In this document: piece by piece, positions 1 to 45,667 of the stretch
How the letters are laid out: the number at the start of each line of letters is the position of its first letter
Numbering within the stretch: position 1 is the first letter of the stretch
Source of the DNA: a virus
Taxonomy: Duplodnaviria > Caudoviricetes
Length of the DNA: 64,000 nucleotides
Reading direction: 5' to 3' (one strand)
Virus record (IMG/VR): IMGVR_UViG_3300049580_000022
Coordinates: 2,017-66,016 of that record
Position numbers and translations under genes: made by a program
Notes under the pieces: model-generated
Told to the model about the DNA's origin: nothing
Databases searched by the model: none
Seen by the model: the letters and a program-made list of their open reading frames with translations, nothing else

Positions 1-447
1 TTCGCGCTGTCCTGCACTGTCGGTGTGGCCCAGGGCCACACCGTTCTGACTTGCTCCTGCAAATCCGCGCCGCCCGCCCCGCGCTCCTTGCGTTTCGAGT
101 TTGGCCCCCCCCGTTAAGGTTTTCGGTGTCGCCCATGAAGATACGAGAGCCACCGTTTTGCGCGACGAGTCGTTGTTGCCCGCTTCGTTGTAATTCTCCG
201 TCGCCTTCGCGCCAGCCATAGGAGTCGGCCACCCAGTAGTTCCGATATCGGATGTGCGGCGCGCCCGCACCCGCAGAGCAGAGATTGATGGCCCCGCAGG
301 CATATCTATCTCCTTCCAGATCAGCACGAACTCCGGCGAACCATTCAAGTCCATCTTTGCTCGCAACTTGTTCGCCAAGCACCGTTGGAGGTCTGCGCTC
401 GGAGATAAGCTGGCAAAAAGCGGGCCAGAGGTGTCGTTCGTCGGCAT
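1..447 (-). CDS. Overlapping +1-frame ORF, putative methyltransferase beta polypeptide with WPTP/WATP repeats (partial)
   Basis: MPTNDTSGPLFASLSPSADLQRCLANKLRAKMDLNGSPEFVLIWK...GWPTPMAG...SWATPKTLTGG lies wholly inside the alpha ORF and has no stop codon. Confidence 0.7.
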   Translation of the reverse strand, partial: MPTNDTSGPLFASLSPSADLQRCLANKLRAKMDLNGSPEFVLIWKEIDMPAGPSISALRVRARRTSDIGTTGWPTPMAGAKATENYNEAGNNDSSRKTVALVSSWATPKTLTGGAKLETQGARGGRRGFAGASQNGVALGHTDSAGQRE

Positions 448-724
448 GGCCTTTTCGCGATCCCGCAAGCGAAAGCGGCTGACAGGGACATGAGCCAGTC
501 CAGATGGGCCGGTCGGTTGAGACGCCAGCAAGCGCGAGGGCGAGCGCCCATCCGCCTGCACCTGCGAAGAAGTGGCATTGGGTGTAACCGGTGAGGTCGG
601 AGGCTTTGACATCGAGAATACTCCTGTTGTCCACATCGCCATGCGGAATGAGGCCATCGCGCATAAGCTGTTCGAGCGCCGCGCAAACGAAATCGTCATT
701 ATCGTTGTAGTAAACGCGCCCCAT
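1..724 (-). CDS. DNA (cytosine-5) methyltransferase, phage type, alpha ORF (3'-partial, not in ORF track)
   Basis: Manual translation from ATG 724: MGRVYYNDND...TQCHFFAGAGGW (motif I)...WTGSCPCQPLS (catalytic PC)...GEQV...APHIRYR. The frame is open to the window edge, with a frame disturbance at the G8 run (105-112). Confidence 0.9.
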   Translation of the reverse strand, partial: MGRVYYNDNDDFVCAALEQLMRDGLIPHGDVDNRSILDVKASDLTGYTQCHFFAGAGGWALALALAGVSTDRPIWTGSCPCQPLSLAGSRKGHADERHLWPAFCQLISERRPPTVLGEQVASKDGLEWFAGVRADLEGDRYACGAINLCSAGAGAPHIRYRNYWVADSYGWREGDGELQRSGQQRLVAQNGGSRIFMGDTENLNGGGQTRNARSAGRAARICRSKSERCGPGPHRQCRTAR

Positions 725-725
725 G

Positions 726-2321
726 TCAGCCTGCCATATCGGCGGCGAGCGTATCGAGATTTAGGCTTGGCTGCGCTGGCGTTTGGGAGGTTGCGTAGCT
801 CGGTGCTTCATCACGGATAGCTGAGACTTCCATGCTGCACCATAGATCGAGCGAGAGCTTCGATATGGCGCCGTCACGGTTTTTGTAACCTACGGTGCGG
901 CATGAATTTTCCACCTCGCTCAATTCGGCTCGCCAGTTAATCCACGATTGCGAAACCGTGCCATCCGCATTCTTGTATTCTGGCGGTCGTTGTTCGATGA
1001 ACCATGCCTTGCGGAAGATGGTGAAGAGAATATCCACGGCCTGTTCAATGCCGCCGGACTCCCGGATGTCTGCGACGGTCGGAGGCGATTCCCGTAGCTT
1101 GCCGTTGGCATCGACATCCTTGTTTTTCATCTGCGCCAAGCCCACCAAGTCCCACCCGATATCTTTCACGATGTCGCCCAGCGCGTAGATGATGTCCGTA
1201 ATTTCCTGATCGCGGCGCACATCTCTTCCGCGGCGTGGGTCTTTCAGCTTTTGCACGAAGTCCACGACCAAGCGTCCCTGCTTCTTCGGATACTTCTTTG
1301 CCATCGCGCGGGCACGCATTCTGATGGTCGGCACATCTATGTCGCCTTCATCGCATACCGTGAGAGGCCAAGTTGCAATCTCACGCTGGGCCTCCAAAAG
1401 CTGCTCAATCTCGATGTTTGTGAGATTGCCGGAGCGCAGTTTCCAAGACGGTATGGGAGCAACGCCGTTGTAAATGAGGTGATGATATTCGCAGAGCGTC
1501 CGATTGCTCCACTGCTCGGCGCTCATGTCGGCGGAGATGATAAGCGTGGGGTTGCCGTCTTGTGCGGAAGCCCGGCCTATCACGTTGGCGATGGCGCTCT
1601 TGCCCATGCCGGATCGTGCGGCAATGACCGCCCGGTCGCCGGGCATCAATCCGCCGCCAAGCGCCCGGTCGAGTTTGCCCAAGCCCGTTGAGATACCGCG
1701 TGGCCGTTCGTTGCCATGTTTGAGCCAGCGCTCGGCCCGTTCCAGCGCCCCAAGCATGATGTCGCCGGCTGAGCGTGTGCGGTTGGGCGCATCGGCCCGC
1801 AGGTTCAATATCGCCTCAACGGATTCGGATGCGATCTTGGCCGACGAAAACTCATGTGGTGCCTCATAAGCGGCATTCACGACATCTTCACCAATGCGAA
1901 TAAGCGCCCGCCGCGCGGACAGTTCTTTGAGGATGCGAACAAAGGCTTTCACGTTTGGCATCGCTGGCGCGCTGAGTGCCAGACCCGCAAGGTAGCCATG
2001 GCCGCCCACCTCTACCAAGCCCGGATCGGCCTTCATCTCCGCGTGGAGAATGAGCGGTGTTACTTCGCCCTGCGCAGCGAGAACACAGAGGATTTGGAAT
2101 ATCCGCTGATGAAGAGCCTCGTAGAAATCTTCCTCCCGCAGGCTCGCTGCGGCTTCATCAATGAAGCTGTTATTGACCAACAGACTGCCAAGAAGAGCTT
2201 GCTCGCATTCGATATCGTAAGGGACATGGCGATATTCCTCAATCATCTCTGCGCCGCTCCCTGAAGCTCTGCGTTCAATTCCCGCTTGGCCTGTTTCCTG
2301 CGCCATCGTTCCTTGCGCCAA
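726..2321 (-). CDS. dnaB: Replicative DNA helicase, DnaB family
   Basis: N-terminal PYDIECEQALLGSLL...DFYEALHQRIF; ISTGLGKLDRALGGGLMPGD; Walker A ARSGMGKS; DIRESGGIEQAVD; KNRDG. Confidence 0.93.
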   Translation of the reverse strand: MAQGTMAQETGQAGIERRASGSGAEMIEEYRHVPYDIECEQALLGSLLVNNSFIDEAAASLREEDFYEALHQRIFQILCVLAAQGEVTPLILHAEMKADPGLVEVGGHGYLAGLALSAPAMPNVKAFVRILKELSARRALIRIGEDVVNAAYEAPHEFSSAKIASESVEAILNLRADAPNRTRSAGDIMLGALERAERWLKHGNERPRGISTGLGKLDRALGGGLMPGDRAVIAARSGMGKSAIANVIGRASAQDGNPTLIISADMSAEQWSNRTLCEYHHLIYNGVAPIPSWKLRSGNLTNIEIEQLLEAQREIATWPLTVCDEGDIDVPTIRMRARAMAKKYPKKQGRLVVDFVQKLKDPRRGRDVRRDQEITDIIYALGDIVKDIGWDLVGLAQMKNKDVDANGKLRESPPTVADIRESGGIEQAVDILFTIFRKAWFIEQRPPEYKNADGTVSQSWINWRAELSEVENSCRTVGYKNRDGAISKLSLDLWCSMEVSAIRDEAPSYATSQTPAQPSLNLDTLAADMAG

Positions 2322-2441: not shown

Positions 2442-3056
2442 TCAAATGCTGTTGCTGTGATCCTGGAATTTTCCGACTTCATTTCCATAGCTATCCCATC
2501 CCTTGCGCGCGTTTCGCGCAAACATTTCCAAATAAGGTCCATCTGCCAGGCGCTCGATGCGCCCATATACGCAGTCCGGTTTTCGGCTGTGCTGGCGCGC
2601 CGGTTCTATGATGCCCATGCGAACGCCAGCATCGTTGCGCTTGGGCTTCCCGCGCGTGGCAAGCAAGCACGGTTCGGTGTTGCTCCGTGTCCAGAAGCCA
2701 AGTTTCATATCGGCTTTGATGGAGTCGTCAAACATGTCCATCTGCATTCCGTTCGCCTTCATCCAATCGAAGCCGGCCGTCTTGTATGTGAAGCCATAAG
2801 CCTCAATACATTCAAGCGCGCGCGGAAGCATCGGCCACGTTGCCCACATCAAAAGGATGCAATCCTTCGCGGCGATGTCCGCGATGGGAAGCGCACACAG
2901 GTCTTCATGCGATAGTGTCTTGTAATGCTTTGTGGCGTTGCGATTGAGGGGCGCATCCGGCGCAGCCTCTTTCCACGGTCGCCAATGCCATGGGAAGTCT
3001 GCGTAGATGACGCGGTAATGGTTGCGCGGTATCGCAGCCAGTTCGGTATAGATCAT
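2442..3056 (-). CDS. MT-A70-family N6-adenine methyltransferase
   Basis: YRVIYADFPW, HYKTLSHEDLCALPIADIAAKDCILLMWAT, GFWTRSNTEPCLLATRGKP, HSRKPD, YLEMFAR..W..YGNE. Start chosen at the ATGA overlap at 3053-3056. Confidence 0.88.
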   Translation of the reverse strand: MIYTELAAIPRNHYRVIYADFPWHWRPWKEAAPDAPLNRNATKHYKTLSHEDLCALPIADIAAKDCILLMWATWPMLPRALECIEAYGFTYKTAGFDWMKANGMQMDMFDDSIKADMKLGFWTRSNTEPCLLATRGKPKRNDAGVRMGIIEPARQHSRKPDCVYGRIERLADGPYLEMFARNARKGWDSYGNEVGKFQDHSNSI

Positions 3057-3295
3057 AGACGCGAGAGCCAGATAAGCGCGTGACTGTCCATGATCTTCCC
3101 CCGTTCGTTCGGATGCTTCTTGACGAAATGATCCGCGCCATTGCGCAAAACCACGTAGCCGCGTTTGCGCAAGGTCATGATGGCCGCATAAACGGTTTTC
3201 CGTTCTGGGTATTTCGAGGGCGATTGCGTCTCGTTGAGCGGCAGACGATCCTGTCTCACAGCAATTTCTCTTGCAGGAATTGGCTGTGTCCCCAC
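3053..3295 (-). CDS. Hypothetical basic protein
   Basis: Its stop overlaps the MT-A70 start (ATGA). GTG start inferred. Confidence 0.5.
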   Translation of the reverse strand: MGTQPIPAREIAVRQDRLPLNETQSPSKYPERKTVYAAIMTLRKRGYVVLRNGADHFVKKHPNERGKIMDSHALIWLSRL

Positions 3296-3768
3296 ACAAG
3301 GATGCACGCGGCTTCGGCGGCGTTATGATCCGTGATGGTCCAGCCCTGCATGGCGCAATAGCGTAGCGCGTGGGCCTTTGGATTTGCCACGCGGCCATCG
3401 CCAAATAAGGCCTTGCGCCACGACTGCGGAGCAACCAGCAACACCTTCTTGGCGCCGCCCTCGATCGCTGCGCCTTGGGCAGCACCGGAAAGCATGACAA
3501 GCGAGCGGTCGCCGTGGGAGCTTGTCTGCACCCATGAGCCATCTTTGCGCTTGCGTTGAATGCCCATGAGAGCGCTTTCCATCACAACAACATCAACGCC
3601 GTTGGCCTTCACGAAGGCGCGCACATTGCCTGCGATGCTGGCGAGTGAGCGAGGCCGCTCTTGATCGCTAAACCCTTTGAGCTTCCATGTGCCCGACAAT
3701 GGGCGTCCGGTTCTTTCACCGAACGCCCATCCGGTCACATTGGCGAGGTCCAATGCGAGACACTTCAC
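3256..3768 (-). CDS. RuvC-like Holliday junction resolvase
   Basis: CLALDLANVTGWA (first acidic residue), VVVMES, VAPQSWRKALFG, DHNAAEAACI. Confidence 0.8.
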   Translation of the reverse strand: MKCLALDLANVTGWAFGERTGRPLSGTWKLKGFSDQERPRSLASIAGNVRAFVKANGVDVVVMESALMGIQRKRKDGSWVQTSSHGDRSLVMLSGAAQGAAIEGGAKKVLLVAPQSWRKALFGDGRVANPKAHALRYCAMQGWTITDHNAAEAACILVWGHSQFLQEKLL

Positions 3769-43617: not shown

Positions 43618-44211
43618 CTATTCGTCGCTCGCAGCGATGGGCTGGCGAACGCCTACTTTCGTCTTTCGCGACATGGTGATTGGCCCGAAGGCATCGCCAC
43701 CTTCAGCCCGGAGGTTGTGATCGCTGATGTGCGATTGCACCAAGGACTGGACCTGACGTTGACGCAGGCTGCGATAGTAAGCCCGCTTTTGCTCGAAGAG
43801 CGGGCGCGGCATCTCGCAGAGGACCAGATCGCCCTGCTTGATGACTTCGCCCAAGGATTTGGTTTGCACGGACGGGAACTTGCTGCGTTCGCCCGCGGGA
43901 ATGCTGCTGAACGGACGCGGGCGCCAGCCTTGGCGGGATTGGTTCGCCACGTTCTTCGCGTCGGCCTTCCCGACAAGATCGGTGCGTATCCAGCGCTGCA
44001 CCATGTTGGGACGCGCCGGCGGCGCATCGAGCGCGCCCGGCGGCGTCCACTCCTGCGGCCACTGATCGTGCACCTCGTTGTCGAAGTGCGACATGGCGTC
44101 GTGAAGATCGTGCATCCCGTGGTGCATCGGCTGATTGTTCTCGACCATCTTCGGCTTCTTGGTCGAGGACGGCGCAGCGGCGGCGGGAGATTGTGCGGGT
44201 CTGCGGACCAT
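43618..44211 (-). CDS. Conserved head-module protein
   Basis: WTPPGALDAPPARP..VQRWIR...D..NV....QGW...GDLVLCEMP...RAYY. Confidence 0.8.
   Translation of the reverse strand: MVRRPAQSPAAAAPSSTKKPKMVENNQPMHHGMHDLHDAMSHFDNEVHDQWPQEWTPPGALDAPPARPNMVQRWIRTDLVGKADAKNVANQSRQGWRPRPFSSIPAGERSKFPSVQTKSLGEVIKQGDLVLCEMPRPLFEQKRAYYRSLRQRQVQSLVQSHISDHNLRAEGGDAFGPITMSRKTKVGVRQPIAASDE
43656..43667 (-). promoter_or_regulatory. GAAAGACGAAAG leader motif, copy 4
   Basis: Exact; within the 3' end of the upstream CDS, 62 nt before ATG 43593. Confidence 0.45.
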
Positions 44212-45326
44212 TAGGCTTGTGCCCTTTCTTTTGCGGCAAGCTGGCGTTTGTCGAACAGCCATTGTCTGCGGTGGGCCGGAATAGCCGGGTCCATGCCAAA
44301 GCGTCTCATCTCGCGGAGGTCCGCATTGTCCAGCTTCACCTCCTTGGGATTGACGGGTTGGCGCTGGACGCCGCTTGTGCCGCTGGGGACTGGGGCTGCG
44401 CCGCTACCGTTGCCGCGGGTGCGCGTGCCGGTGGCGATGGCGCGACCGTCCGTGGTCTTGATGATGCCCGGATGCAGGCGGTTGAACCGCTTGCCGAGTT
44501 CCACGAAATACTCCGGCGTATCCTTGTCGAGCTTGCCTTCGGCGGAGAGGTCACGATCAAGGGCGCGCAAGACCGCTGCCTTGCTGGCGTATTTCGGGTC
44601 CGTAAACCACTTGTTGTGCTGCAAGAACTGAGGGGTGAGCTTGGAGCCTTGCTGTTGGGCAGGCGCGGCCTTGGTCTGGGCGCGCACAACCTGATCGACC
44701 ACCGGATTGCCAGCGGCGTCACGCGGCGCGCGGGCAAGCAAAGCATTGGCGCGCGCTTTCACATCGGCGCGCTGGTGGGCGATGGTCTGCAAATCCACCG
44801 CGTTCTGCCGCTGGTTGGCGACCAGATCGGCCAGGTCGTTCGTGAGGCGCACAACCTTCTTGGAATCGCCTGCATCCTGGGCGGCTTCCAGATCGGCATT
44901 CAGGCGGTCACGTTCGGCCTTGAAGCGCTCTTCATCGCGTTTCGCTACGGCCTCCCGCGCATCGAGCGCGTTGGCTTCGCCCACGACAATCTGCACGTCC
45001 TTGGGGTCGAAGATGATTTCACCTTCGGCCTGGGCTGCGGCGGGGGCGGCTTCTTCCGCAGCGGGTTCTTCGCCCTCGTCAATGATTGGGGATGGTTCGG
45101 ATTCTTCCTCCGCGACCTTGAGGTCGGGATCATCCGCAAAAGGATCGTCCAAATCCTTCTCGCTGGCCGGGCGCTTCTTGGACGAACGCCGCTCGCTTTC
45201 GGCGGCTATTTCGTCATCGAAATTCAGGTCATCCGTTTCGGTATCGAAATCGGGATCGGGATTGCCACGGAGGTCCGTGAAGTCCTCGAAGTCGTCTTCG
45301 GCGGCGGCGGTGCGGCGCGGTGCCAT
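44211..45326 (-). CDS. Scaffolding protein (putative)
   Basis: Acidic N-terminus, coiled coil, NKWFTDP, VKL...MRRFGM...W; between portal and capsid genes; AAGGAG Shine-Dalgarno. Confidence 0.75.
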   Translation of the reverse strand: MAPRRTAAAEDDFEDFTDLRGNPDPDFDTETDDLNFDDEIAAESERRSSKKRPASEKDLDDPFADDPDLKVAEEESEPSPIIDEGEEPAAEEAAPAAAQAEGEIIFDPKDVQIVVGEANALDAREAVAKRDEERFKAERDRLNADLEAAQDAGDSKKVVRLTNDLADLVANQRQNAVDLQTIAHQRADVKARANALLARAPRDAAGNPVVDQVVRAQTKAAPAQQQGSKLTPQFLQHNKWFTDPKYASKAAVLRALDRDLSAEGKLDKDTPEYFVELGKRFNRLHPGIIKTTDGRAIATGTRTRGNGSGAAPVPSGTSGVQRQPVNPKEVKLDNADLREMRRFGMDPAIPAHRRQWLFDKRQLAAKERAQA

Positions 45327-45398
45327 TGCATCTCCTTGCGGAGCCGCCCGGCGCACACGCGCGCGATGTCAGCCCCTTCGTCTGGCGTTCGACATCTT

Positions 45399-45410
45399 CT
45401 TTCGTCTTTC
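45399..45410 (-). promoter_or_regulatory. GAAAGACGAAAG leader motif, copy 5
   Basis: Exact; intergenic, 72 nt before the scaffold ATG. Confidence 0.65.
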
Positions 45411-45436
45411 TTCTTTCGGGAGGAAGCGTTGCCCGG

Positions 45437-45667
45437 TTAGGCAAGCTCGACATCAACGGCGCAGTCGCGTCCGTTGAATTGGCCGACATTGCACAGAAGG
45501 TGGACTCCTTTCAAGAGTCTGTCCGGTGGGACATGTCCCTTCCGCACCTCGTAAGCGTGGATGTAGAGGTCGTGAGGATAGCCGTCGAGCTTGAGGAACC
45601 CATGCCCTTTGTCCCGGCTATACCAGATGACCTCGGCCCGATGTTTCGATTTTGCGTGCGCGCTCAT
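45437..45667 (-). CDS. Cold-shock (CSD) domain protein
   Basis: VIWYSRDKGHGFL (RNP1-like), DLYIHAYEV (RNP2-like), AVDVEL. Confidence 0.85.
   Translation of the reverse strand: MSAHAKSKHRAEVIWYSRDKGHGFLKLDGYPHDLYIHAYEVRKGHVPPDRLLKGVHLLCNVGQFNGRDCAVDVELA

What the first reader, a model, noticed from the sequence alone, without database searches (positions are those of the whole stretch)
1..724. Dual-frame C5 methyltransferase: a second protein written inside the first
Seen: two stop-free minus-strand frames overlap for at least 447 nt. The frame from 724 carries C5-MTase motifs (FFAG, PCQ, GEQV, PHIR). The +1 frame from 447 reads as an ordered protein with repeated WPTP/WATP units. Both run off the edge, so neither appears in the ORF track. 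Established: M.EcoHK31I has its beta subunit encoded in an alternative frame inside the alpha gene. Inference: this is a two-polypeptide MTase whose variable region is coded in both frames.
Basis: partly seen in the sequence, partly recalled or inferred. Interest (0 to 1): 0.7.

Follow-up and report, generated by a model that had tools for sequence, protein, structure and literature searches.

The report
Two-frame, two-chain phage cytosine methyltransferase
This phage's DNA cytosine-methyltransferase gene is read in two overlapping frames, one giving the catalytic body and the other, nested inside it, most likely the DNA-recognition half. The layout is conserved across many phages and prophages but is usually annotated as a single gene.

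Summary
The window starts 2,016 bases into a 66-kb phage genome. Extending left completes both frames.

- **Frame A (alpha):** 345 codons with C5-methyltransferase motifs I-VIII and motif X (GNAI). Between them lies an unconserved linker that is predicted disordered.
- **Frame B (+1, beta):** 277 codons, wholly nested in alpha. It starts at an ATG (window 612) preceded by AGGAG. It carries the WPTP/WATP repeats and LNPYFSGWLMGYPAAW, which looks like motif IX.

Both frames are open in 78 of 82 viral loci, and in 70 of 79 bacterial loci that were fetched through beta alone. Codon shuffles predict about 3 stops per gene. In the middle of the gene only frame B is conserved. A complex prediction scored 0.89 against 0.02 for the best control.

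The best reading is a two-chain enzyme of the M.EcoHK31I type, split differently: beta carries the whole small domain. No expression or activity data exist.

One feature is particular to this phage. A 39-codon stretch of beta is out of register (its ancestral reading lies in the third frame) between a G8 run (window 105-112) and a 1-base loss just left of the window.

This scan has noted the same layout in at least 55 other genomes.

The parts
1..724 (-). Alpha ORF (frame A), in-window part. The full ORF is 345 aa and runs 313 nt beyond the left edge (L003 1703-2740). It is the catalytic large domain: motif I FFAGAGG (571-551), motif IV PCQ (487-479), motif VI GEQV (376-365) and motif VIII PHIRYR (259-242). 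An unconserved linker follows (aa 170-258). The C-terminal part with motif X (GNAI) lies outside the window.
   Evidence: Pfam PF00145 at 38.2 bits. 7,994 homologues. The AlphaFold model matches M.HaeIII 1dct_A and M.HhaI at E about 2e-7 over about 194 columns; residues 173-258 have pLDDT below 50.
1..612 (-). Beta ORF (frame B, +1), in-window part. The full ORF is 277 aa (L003 1795-2628) and is wholly nested in alpha. It has a Ser/Pro-rich leader that is free to vary (aa 1 to about 60). Then come a conserved helix and hairpin (SPSADLQ...GSPEFVLIWKEIDMPAGPSISALR), WPTP (231-220), NEAGNNDSSRKTVAL and WATP (135-124). The motif IX-like LNPYFSGWLMGYPAAW lies left of the window.
   Evidence: 5,145 relatives at E<=1e-3 and 1,453 at <=1e-10. 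tblastn matches in the +1 frame of annotated phage methyltransferase genes. In the middle region, 1,177 of 2,850 frame-B pairs are significant, against 104 for frame A.
621..625 (-). AGGAG ribosome-binding site for beta, written inside alpha codons Asn-Arg-Ser (AAC AGG AGT), 8 nt before the beta ATG.
   Evidence: AGGAG occurs in nt 70-118 of 30 of 76 genes, against 5.6% of other 48-nt windows. AGG is used at alpha R34 in 25 of 75 genes, against 8% overall.
610..612 (-). Likely beta start codon ATG. It is formed by alpha codons Asp38-Val39 (GAT GTC).
   Evidence: 71 of 82 loci have a frame-B ATG at +40 to +125, and 44 of these have a Shine-Dalgarno-like core. GAT is used at alpha D38 in 41 of 60 Asp codons, against 36.5% overall.
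105..112 (-). G8 run on the coding strand (C8 on the + strand). It is the 5' boundary of the out-of-register patch in beta, and the only G/C run longer than 6 in the 66-kb genome.
1..104 (-). In-window part of the 39-codon patch. Here the homologue-like beta sequence (GGPNSKRKERGAGGADLQEQVRTVWPWATPTVQDSANNAG) is in frame C, not frame B. Register returns to frame B at GCGGGGCG (about L003 2008-2015, just left of the window). All three frames are open in this stretch.
   Evidence: The frame-C patch matches beta homologues (P0130 at E 1e-13 and 84% identity; P0146 has WATPTVQDSANNAGPSQFHRNSLPLN). The frame-A and frame-B patches match nothing.

Best explanation
The locus encodes a heterodimeric C5 cytosine DNA methyltransferase from one stretch of DNA read in two frames.

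Alpha (frame A, 345 aa) is the catalytic large domain. It has the AdoMet-binding motif I, the catalytic Cys of motif IV, motifs VI and VIII, and the C-terminal motif X helix. In place of the small domain it has a roughly 90-aa linker that is free to vary and is predicted disordered. That linker must only stay stop-free, so that the ribosome can reach motif X.

Beta (frame B, +1, 277 aa) is translated separately from its own AGGAG-N8-ATG, which is embedded in alpha codons 33-39. It supplies the small domain: the variable recognition region built of WPTP-type units, plus motif IX.

The two chains assemble, and DNA binds in the cleft between them. The phage probably methylates its own DNA to escape host restriction.

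What is shown: both frames are kept open by selection, the protein-level constraint switches from frame A to frame B and back along the gene, and a start signal is embedded. What is inferred: beta is translated, the chains bind, both are needed, and the biological role.

In this phage one recognition unit of beta is scrambled by a compensated pair of 1-base indels (+1 at the G run, -1 about 115 nt later). The pair leaves motif IX of beta and motif X of alpha in register.
For: **Anatomy**
- Alpha has motifs I-VIII and X but no motif IX. Beta has LNPYFSGWLMGYPAAW.
- In a profile comparison, beta's only match to E. coli Dcm is Dcm's motif IX (PRRLTPRECARLMGF, residues 399-415). Alpha aligns to Dcm motifs IV-VII.

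**Family-wide layout**
- 78 of 82 viral loci have both frames open. The WPTP and motif IX patterns occur only in frame B. The third frame is always closed.
- In 80 bacterial loci fetched through beta alone, 79 have alpha's N-domain in the -1 frame, and 70 show the full layout. No free-standing beta gene was seen among them.

**Selection**
- Shuffles expect 3.35 stops in frame B (open in 3.6% of trials), but 0 were seen in 78 of 78 loci.
- Frame A in the middle expects 2.17 stops (open in 14.5% of trials), but 0 were seen.
- The control frame C shows 9.56 stops against 9.27 expected.
- Entropy at alpha's third codon position falls from 1.4-1.6 (aa 1-90) to 0.97-1.15 (aa 91-168) and 0.84 (aa 261-300), which is where beta is conserved.
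- In the middle region, frame B gives 1,177 significant pairs, frame A 104 and frame C 251.

**Start signal**
- AGGAG and ATG are embedded through rare AGG and GAT codons.

**Structure**
- The alpha model matches the M.HaeIII and M.HhaI catalytic domain and has a disordered linker.
- Complex prediction scored 0.89, against 0.02 for the best of 3 controls. That mark was reached by 58 of 80 solved complexes and 2 of 110 mismatched pairs. The runs agree in at least 69% of contacts, and the partner's pLDDT is at least 54.
- In that model, beta 243-265 touches alpha 304-321 and 15-25. The pass may reflect likeness to solved single-chain C5 methyltransferases.

**Annotation precedent**
- Xanthomonas phage PhiXhv-5 already carries two overlapping CDSs here.
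Against: - There is no direct evidence that beta is made: no proteomics, Ribo-seq or activity data.
- Beta matches no Pfam family and no solved structure by sequence. The motif IX alignment to Dcm is not significant (E 0.31).
- Beta alone folds with low confidence (pLDDT 58).
- 11 of 82 loci lack a frame-B ATG at +40 to +125, so the start site is not uniform.
- In this phage beta carries a 39-residue scrambled patch, so this copy may be impaired.
- The viral loci were picked by full-length alpha matches. That choice biases the viral set towards an open frame A.
Confidence: 0.7

Rival explanations
1. One polypeptide is made by two programmed ribosomal frameshifts: frame A through motif VIII, a +1 shift into frame B for the recognition region and motif IX, then a -1 shift back to frame A for motif X. 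This would recreate a canonical single-chain enzyme.
For: The order of motifs along the DNA (I-VIII in A, IX in B, X in A) is the canonical order. YWVADS in frame A and GWPTP in frame B share the same bases at the first junction.
Against: - Frame A stays open through the middle although its sequence is unconstrained.
- Frame B stays open about 260 nt upstream of its conserved part and has its own embedded AGGAG and ATG.
- Neither feature would be needed by a frameshifting ribosome.
- I noticed no conserved slippery site, though I did not search for one systematically. Two efficient shifts in one gene would be unusual.
Confidence: 0.07
2. Beta is a real, translated protein, but it is not a subunit of the methyltransferase. 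It could be, for example, an independent DNA-binding or anti-defence protein overprinted on the gene. Alpha would work alone or with a host factor.
For: Beta has no significant sequence or fold match to any known methyltransferase part.
Against: - Beta was found only inside alpha genes (79 of 80 loci fetched through beta).
- Alpha lacks motif IX and a conserved recognition region.
- Beta's one weak match to Dcm falls exactly on motif IX.
- The complex prediction places that segment next to alpha's motif X region (score 0.89 against 0.02 for the best control).
Confidence: 0.1
3. The family layout is real, but this phage's copy is damaged or mis-assembled. The G8 run and the second indel would be homopolymer assembly errors, or recent mutations that cripple beta.
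For: - The ancestral reading of 39 codons sits in frame C and is still 73-84% identical to homologues, with the 14-residue WATPTVQDSANNAG segment identical in P0146. The shift is therefore very recent or artefactual.
- The first boundary is a G8 run, the only G/C run longer than 6 in the genome.
- Another locus (L108) hops frame at a G8 run.
Against: - The two indels compensate exactly, so both ORFs stay full length.
- The rest of the genome has long intact ORFs (for example 5.3 kb), which argues against an error-prone assembly.
- The patch lies outside the predicted alpha-beta interface.
Confidence: 0.2
4. Frame B is a non-coding shadow of a GC-rich gene, and there is only one protein.
For: The genome is 59% GC, and long shadow ORFs occur elsewhere in it (a 734-nt double-open stretch).
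Against: - Frame B is open in about 95% of loci, where shuffles allow 3.6%.
- It is the only conserved frame in the middle region.
- It has 1,453 relatives at E<=1e-10.
- The third frame behaves as noise.
Confidence: 0.03

Closest known systems
M.EcoHK31I (E. coli HK31, YGGCCR; Lee, Kam and Shaw 1995, as described in PMC2836561 and PMC3404938)
   Same: A C5 methyltransferase made of two polypeptides. The second chain is encoded in another reading frame inside the first chain's gene. [quoted passage not shown]
   Different: In M.EcoHK31I the large chain keeps the target-recognition domain, and the small chain holds motif IX only. Here beta is 277 of 345 codons and carries the whole conserved variable region as well as motif IX, while alpha's own middle is an unconstrained linker. 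Sequence relatedness to M.EcoHK31I was not tested, and the 1995 paper itself was not held.
M.AquI (CYCGRG; two-subunit C5 methyltransferase, PMC3404938)
   Same: A natural split of a C5 methyltransferase within the variable region into two chains that must associate.
   Different: As I recall (not stated in PMC3404938), its two genes are separate and do not overlap. In M.AquI the small subunit carries motifs IX and X; here motif X stays on alpha.
Single-chain C5 methyltransferases M.HhaI and M.HaeIII (PF00145; 1dct, 2i9k)
   Same: The alpha model superposes on their catalytic domain (Foldseek E about 2e-7, about 194 columns). The motif order along the DNA is canonical.
   Different: In those enzymes the small domain (recognition region plus motif IX) is part of the same chain. 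Here it is read from the +1 frame.
Overlapping CDS pair annotated in Xanthomonas phage PhiXhv-5 (PV764598.1, 8701-9720 and 8706-9638); single gp33 in Burkholderia phage BcepC6B (NC_005887.1)
   Same: These are homologous loci with the same two open frames, each about 310 aa in frame B.
   Different: They are annotated as two 'methyltransferase' genes (PhiXhv-5) or one gene (BcepC6B), with no explanation in the record. I found no paper on them.

Membership tests
C5 cytosine DNA methyltransferase (PF00145) | Pfam model hit above the gathering score | tested here: met
   Alpha scores 38.2 bits against a cut-off of 22, over residues 76-166 only.
C5 cytosine DNA methyltransferase (PF00145) | Motif I FxGxG, motif IV PCQ with the catalytic Cys, motif VI ENV-like, motif VIII QxRxR-like | tested here: met
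   FFAGAGG (52-58), SCPCQP (78-83), GEQV (117-120) and PHIRYR (156-161). These residues are invariant in 40 homologues.
C5 cytosine DNA methyltransferase (PF00145) | Motif X (GNAV/GNSV) at the C-terminus | tested here: met
   Alpha has GNAI at 322-325. G322 and N323 are invariant.
C5 cytosine DNA methyltransferase (PF00145) | Motif IX and the recognition region lie in the same chain as the catalytic motifs | tested here: not met
   Alpha residues 170-258 are unconserved and disordered. The motif IX-like segment is in frame B.
C5 cytosine DNA methyltransferase (PF00145) | Catalytic-domain fold | tested here: met
   The alpha model matches 1dct_A and M.HhaI entries at E 1.8e-7 to 7e-7, TM about 0.33, over about 194 columns.
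C5 cytosine DNA methyltransferase (PF00145) | 5-methylcytosine-forming activity | not testable with these tools
   This needs expression and methylation mapping.
M.EcoHK31I-type two-chain enzyme with a nested second gene | The second chain is encoded in another frame inside the first chain's gene | tested here: met
   Beta (L003 1795-2628) lies wholly inside alpha (1703-2740), in the +1 frame. The layout is conserved in 78 of 82 viral and 70 of 79 bacterial loci.
M.EcoHK31I-type two-chain enzyme with a nested second gene | The second chain supplies motif IX, which the first chain lacks | tested here: inconclusive
   The pattern LNPxFSxWLMGYPxxW is nearly invariant in beta. It aligns to Dcm motif IX, but only at E 0.31. 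The complex model places it next to alpha's motif X region.
M.EcoHK31I-type two-chain enzyme with a nested second gene | The large chain retains the target-recognition domain | tested here: not met
   The only conserved reading of the variable region is frame B, i.e. beta.
M.EcoHK31I-type two-chain enzyme with a nested second gene | Both chains are required for methylation | not testable with these tools
   The complex prediction supports binding only (0.89 against 0.02 for the best control).
Simple-sequence contingency locus (phase-variable methyltransferase) | A homopolymer tract inside the ORF whose length varies between reads or close relatives and switches the frame | tested here: inconclusive
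   A G8 tract is present and sits at a frame break. G runs of 7 or more occur 15 times in 160 family genes. No reads or near-identical relatives could be obtained.

The most novel reading that the evidence does not exclude
Poly-G tracts in the recognition region act as slippage hot spots. Because all three frames are locally open, single-base slips followed by nearby compensating slips can scramble or swap individual WPTP recognition units without breaking either chain. This would give the phage a fast way to change or switch which sequences it methylates. The G8-bounded, exactly compensated 39-codon patch in this phage would be one such event caught in the act.
Probability: 0.1. Interest if true: 0.75.

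Novelty: new variant of a known kind. Interest (0 to 1): 0.6.

Why it matters
If both chains are made and needed, this large family of phage and prophage cytosine methyltransferases is routinely mis-annotated as single genes. The search with alpha returned 7,994 relatives, the limit of what was scored, and beta has 5,145 relatives. The half that decides which DNA sequences are protected is invisible to standard pipelines.

The overlap would also be an unusually long, conserved same-strand one for a phage: about 830 nt, with one gene wholly inside the other. It shows a clean division of constraint, with one frame conserved and the other merely kept open, switching twice along the gene. That makes it a good natural model for how dual coding evolves and is maintained.

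In practice, predicting phage methylation specificity, and so restriction evasion and host range, requires reading the second frame.

Tried and rejected

As a result no read-level check of the G8 run or of expression was possible, and read laying was not used.

**Searches that found nothing**
- Exact-pattern scans for G6-G10 variants of the tract found nothing in viral contigs or metagenome contigs.
- The alpha protein's cluster has one member, on two contigs from one source, so the assembly has no independent confirmation.
- Beta alone has no Pfam family at E<=1, either for this copy or for 40 relatives.
- A profile search of beta against PDB sequences gave only a chance hit at E 1.7.
- A fold search with the beta model gave nothing above Z 4.3. 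The model is confident only at residues 70-125 and 240-270.
- Five literature searches found nothing on this family's layout. Two apparent leads turned out to be about Rz/Rz1 spanins and a plant virus. The 1995 M.EcoHK31I paper is not held.

**Readings considered and rejected**
- A frameshifted pseudogene or sequencing error as the cause of the two frames. The layout recurs in about 150 independent loci.
- A GC-rich shadow ORF. Shuffles and conservation contradict it.

**Exceptions seen**
- L063, L108 and L127 carry uncompensated frame hops of beta segments.
- L079, L131 and L157 have early stops in alpha.
- P0198 reads as a beta-to-alpha C-terminus chimera.
- These look like broken copies or draft-assembly errors. 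I did not pursue them.

Full report
**What is there**

The window is bases 2017-66016 of a 66,016-bp phage genome. The genome has 127-bp terminal repeats and 59% GC. The finding sits at the left edge, so I fetched the missing 2,016 bases (L003; window coordinate = L003 - 2016).

On the minus strand, frame A is a complete 345-codon ORF (L003 1703-2740; ATG at window 724). It starts one base after the stop of a DnaB-type helicase gene.

Frame B, shifted +1, has no stop for 1,026 nt (L003 1798-2823). Frame C is full of stops.

They extend well beyond the 447 nt noted.

**What each frame says**

Frame A reads the C5-methyltransferase motifs:
- FFAGAGG (motif I)
- SCPCQP (motif IV)
- GEQV (motif VI)
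- PHIRYR (motif VIII)
- GNAI (motif X), after a gap

Pfam PF00145 matches at 38.2 bits against a cut-off of 22, but only over residues 76-166.

Residues 170-258 are Arg/Gly-rich and align with nothing. In 40 homologues the N-terminal 170 and C-terminal 80 residues align well, while the middle varies freely in sequence and length.

Frame B reads, from about codon 85 of the ORF defined below:
- GSPEFVLIWKEIDMPAGPSISALRVRARRTSDIGTTGWPTPMAG
- NEAGNNDSSRKTVAL
- WATP
- LNPYFSGWLMGYPAAWSD, near its end

That last pattern resembles canonical motif IX. A profile of beta relatives has one match to E. coli Dcm, and it is Dcm's motif IX (PRRLTPRECARLMGF, 399-415). At E 0.31 this is suggestive only. Alpha's profile aligns to Dcm motifs IV-VII at E 5e-5.

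**Frame B is a real protein family**

The frame-B peptide has 5,145 relatives at E<=1e-3, and 1,453 at <=1e-10, among 1.84 billion representative proteins.

By tblastn it also hits annotated phage methyltransferase genes in their +1 frame. Burkholderia phage BcepC6B gp33 is annotated as one gene. Xanthomonas phage PhiXhv-5 already lists two overlapping CDSs.

**The layout is family-wide**

Viral loci, chosen through alpha:
- In 82 loci (this one, two phage records and 80 viral contigs), both frames are open over the whole gene in 78.
- The WPTP-type and motif IX-type patterns occur in frame B only.
- Frame C never spans the gene.

This set is biased towards an intact frame A, so I also fetched 80 bacterial-genome loci through beta alone:
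- 79 have alpha's N-domain in the -1 frame over the same DNA.
- 70 show the full layout, and 3 more are cut by contig ends.
- The hosts span Pseudomonadota, Planctomycetota, Verrucomicrobiota, Gemmatimonadota, Acidobacteriota, Chloroflexota, Bacteroidota and candidate phyla.
- I saw no free-standing beta gene among them.

**Selection**

Shuffling synonymous codons of frame A predicts 3.35 stops in frame B per gene, leaving it open in 3.6% of trials. Even the part upstream of beta's conserved region predicts 1.26 stops. None was observed in 78 loci.

Frame C serves as a control: 9.56 stops observed against 9.27 simulated.

Shuffling frame B predicts 2.17 stops in frame A's middle, leaving it open in 14.5% of trials. 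None was observed. In the set ascertained through beta, frame A is open in 70 of 79 loci.

Entropy at alpha's third codon position tracks where beta is conserved:

| Alpha residues | Third-position entropy |
|---|---|
| 1-90 | 1.4-1.6 |
| 91-168 | 0.97-1.15 |
| 261-300 | 0.84 |
| after beta ends | 1.39 |

In the middle region, all-against-all BLASTP gives these counts of significant pairs out of 2,850:

| Frame | Significant pairs |
|---|---|
| B | 1,177 |
| A | 104 |
| C | 251 |

So frame A is conserved as protein at both ends and merely kept open in the middle. Frame B is conserved in the middle and near its end, and merely kept open at its start.

**Where beta starts**

In this phage a frame-B ATG at window 612-610 follows AGGAG (625-621) by 8 nt. 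The AGGAG is written in alpha codons AAC AGG AGT, and the ATG in GAT GTC.

Across the family:
- 71 of 82 loci have a frame-B ATG at +40 to +125, and 44 of these have a Shine-Dalgarno-like core.
- AGG is used at alpha R34 in 25 of 75 genes, against 8% overall.
- GAT is used at D38 in 41 of 60 Asp codons, against 36.5% overall.
- AGGAG occurs there in 30 of 76 genes, against 5.6% of other 48-nt windows.

Starting there, beta is 277 aa and wholly nested in alpha. Its first 60 or so residues are Ser/Pro-rich, unconstrained and predicted disordered.

**Structure**

The alpha model is confident for residues 1-170 and 320-345 and disordered for 173-258. It matches M.HaeIII and M.HhaI over about 194 columns at E about 2e-7, which corresponds to the catalytic domain.

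Beta alone folds poorly (pLDDT 58).

The complex prediction for alpha with beta 85-277 gave these results:
- It scored 0.89, against 0.02 for the best of three controls.
- That mark was reached by 58 of 80 solved complexes and 2 of 110 mismatched pairs.
- The runs agree in at least 69% of contacts, and the partner's pLDDT is at least 54.
- The motif IX-like helix of beta (243-265) touches alpha 304-321 and 15-25.

Because single-chain C5 methyltransferases are solved, this pass may reflect likeness to them. It supports binding but does not show it.

**How it most likely works**

[quoted passage not shown] Here the large domain is alpha and the small domain is beta, made from the same DNA.

The closest precedent is M.EcoHK31I. 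Its beta chain, holding motif IX, lies in another frame inside the alpha gene (PMC2836561, PMC3404938). In that enzyme alpha keeps the recognition domain. Here beta has it, and the overlap covers about 80% of the gene.

A single chain made by two frameshifts is unlikely. It would need neither an open frame-A linker nor an upstream-open frame B with its own start signal.

**Peculiar to this phage**

Between the G8 run (window 105-112) and GCGGGGCG just left of the window, the homologue-like beta sequence lies in frame C: GGPNSKRKERGAGGADLQEQVRTVWPWATPTVQDSANNAG.
- It matches P0130 at E 1e-13.
- P0146 reads WATPTVQDSANNAGPSQFHRNSLPLN straight through.
- The frame-A and frame-B readings of the same bases match nothing.

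Relative to relatives, this is +1 base at the G run and -1 base about 115 nt later. Both ORFs therefore stay full length, but beta has 39 scrambled residues and loses its third WxTP unit.

The G8 is the only G/C run longer than 6 in the genome. Family genes are rich in coding-strand G runs: 40 of length 6 or more, against 10 C runs. Another locus, L108, hops frame at a G8.

I could not obtain reads or near-identical relatives. The choice between real compensated slippage and assembly error therefore stays open. Long intact ORFs elsewhere in the genome, and the exact compensation, favour a real change.

**Standing**

This scan has noted the same layout in at least 55 other genomes. I re-tested the core claims on my own data. 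I found no paper describing this family's layout.

Noticed in passing
window 105-112, and L003 2008-2015 (just left of the window): The G8 run is the only G/C homopolymer longer than 6 in the 66-kb genome. It bounds a 39-codon stretch of beta that is out of register; a 1-base loss about 115 nt downstream restores register. All three frames are open in between.
   Followed up: partly
family loci L006-L166 (gene bodies): Coding-strand G runs are enriched in these methyltransferase genes: 40 G runs of 6 or more against 10 C runs, including six G8 runs, in 165 kb. Most encode Gly-Gly in frame B. L108 (Azospirillum sp. B506) shifts beta into the third frame at a G8 where L115 has an in-frame G7.
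   Followed up: partly
P0198; L063; L127: There are rare rearranged readings. P0198 is a predicted protein that runs from beta's N-terminal part straight into alpha's C-terminal motif X region. L063 has beta's C-terminal half in frame A and alpha's C-terminus in frame C. L127 has beta's C-terminal half in frame C. These may be broken copies, assembly errors or natural fusions.
   Followed up: no
window 2442-3542 (-): A second methyltransferase-like ORF (366 aa) with ...IYADFPWHW..., resembling the MT-A70/DPPW type of adenine methyltransferase. The phage may therefore carry two DNA methyltransferases. No search was run on it.
   Followed up: no
L003 1468-1716 (-), left of the window: An 82-aa ORF with a Cys/His-rich start (CAVPGCRRSCKAETGFTDWLCPKHW) overlaps the 3' end of alpha by 14 nt. 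It may be a small zinc-binding protein that is translationally coupled to the methyltransferase.
   Followed up: no
window 726-2321 (-): A DnaB-type replicative helicase (531 aa) whose stop lies one base before alpha's ATG. Its best phage match is Caulobacter phage DMCA at 31% identity, so the phage has no close cultured relative.
   Followed up: partly
genome 46208-47493 (+), i.e. window about 44192-45477: The second-longest same-strand double-open stretch in the genome (734 nt). I did not examine it; it may be a GC-rich shadow ORF.
   Followed up: no
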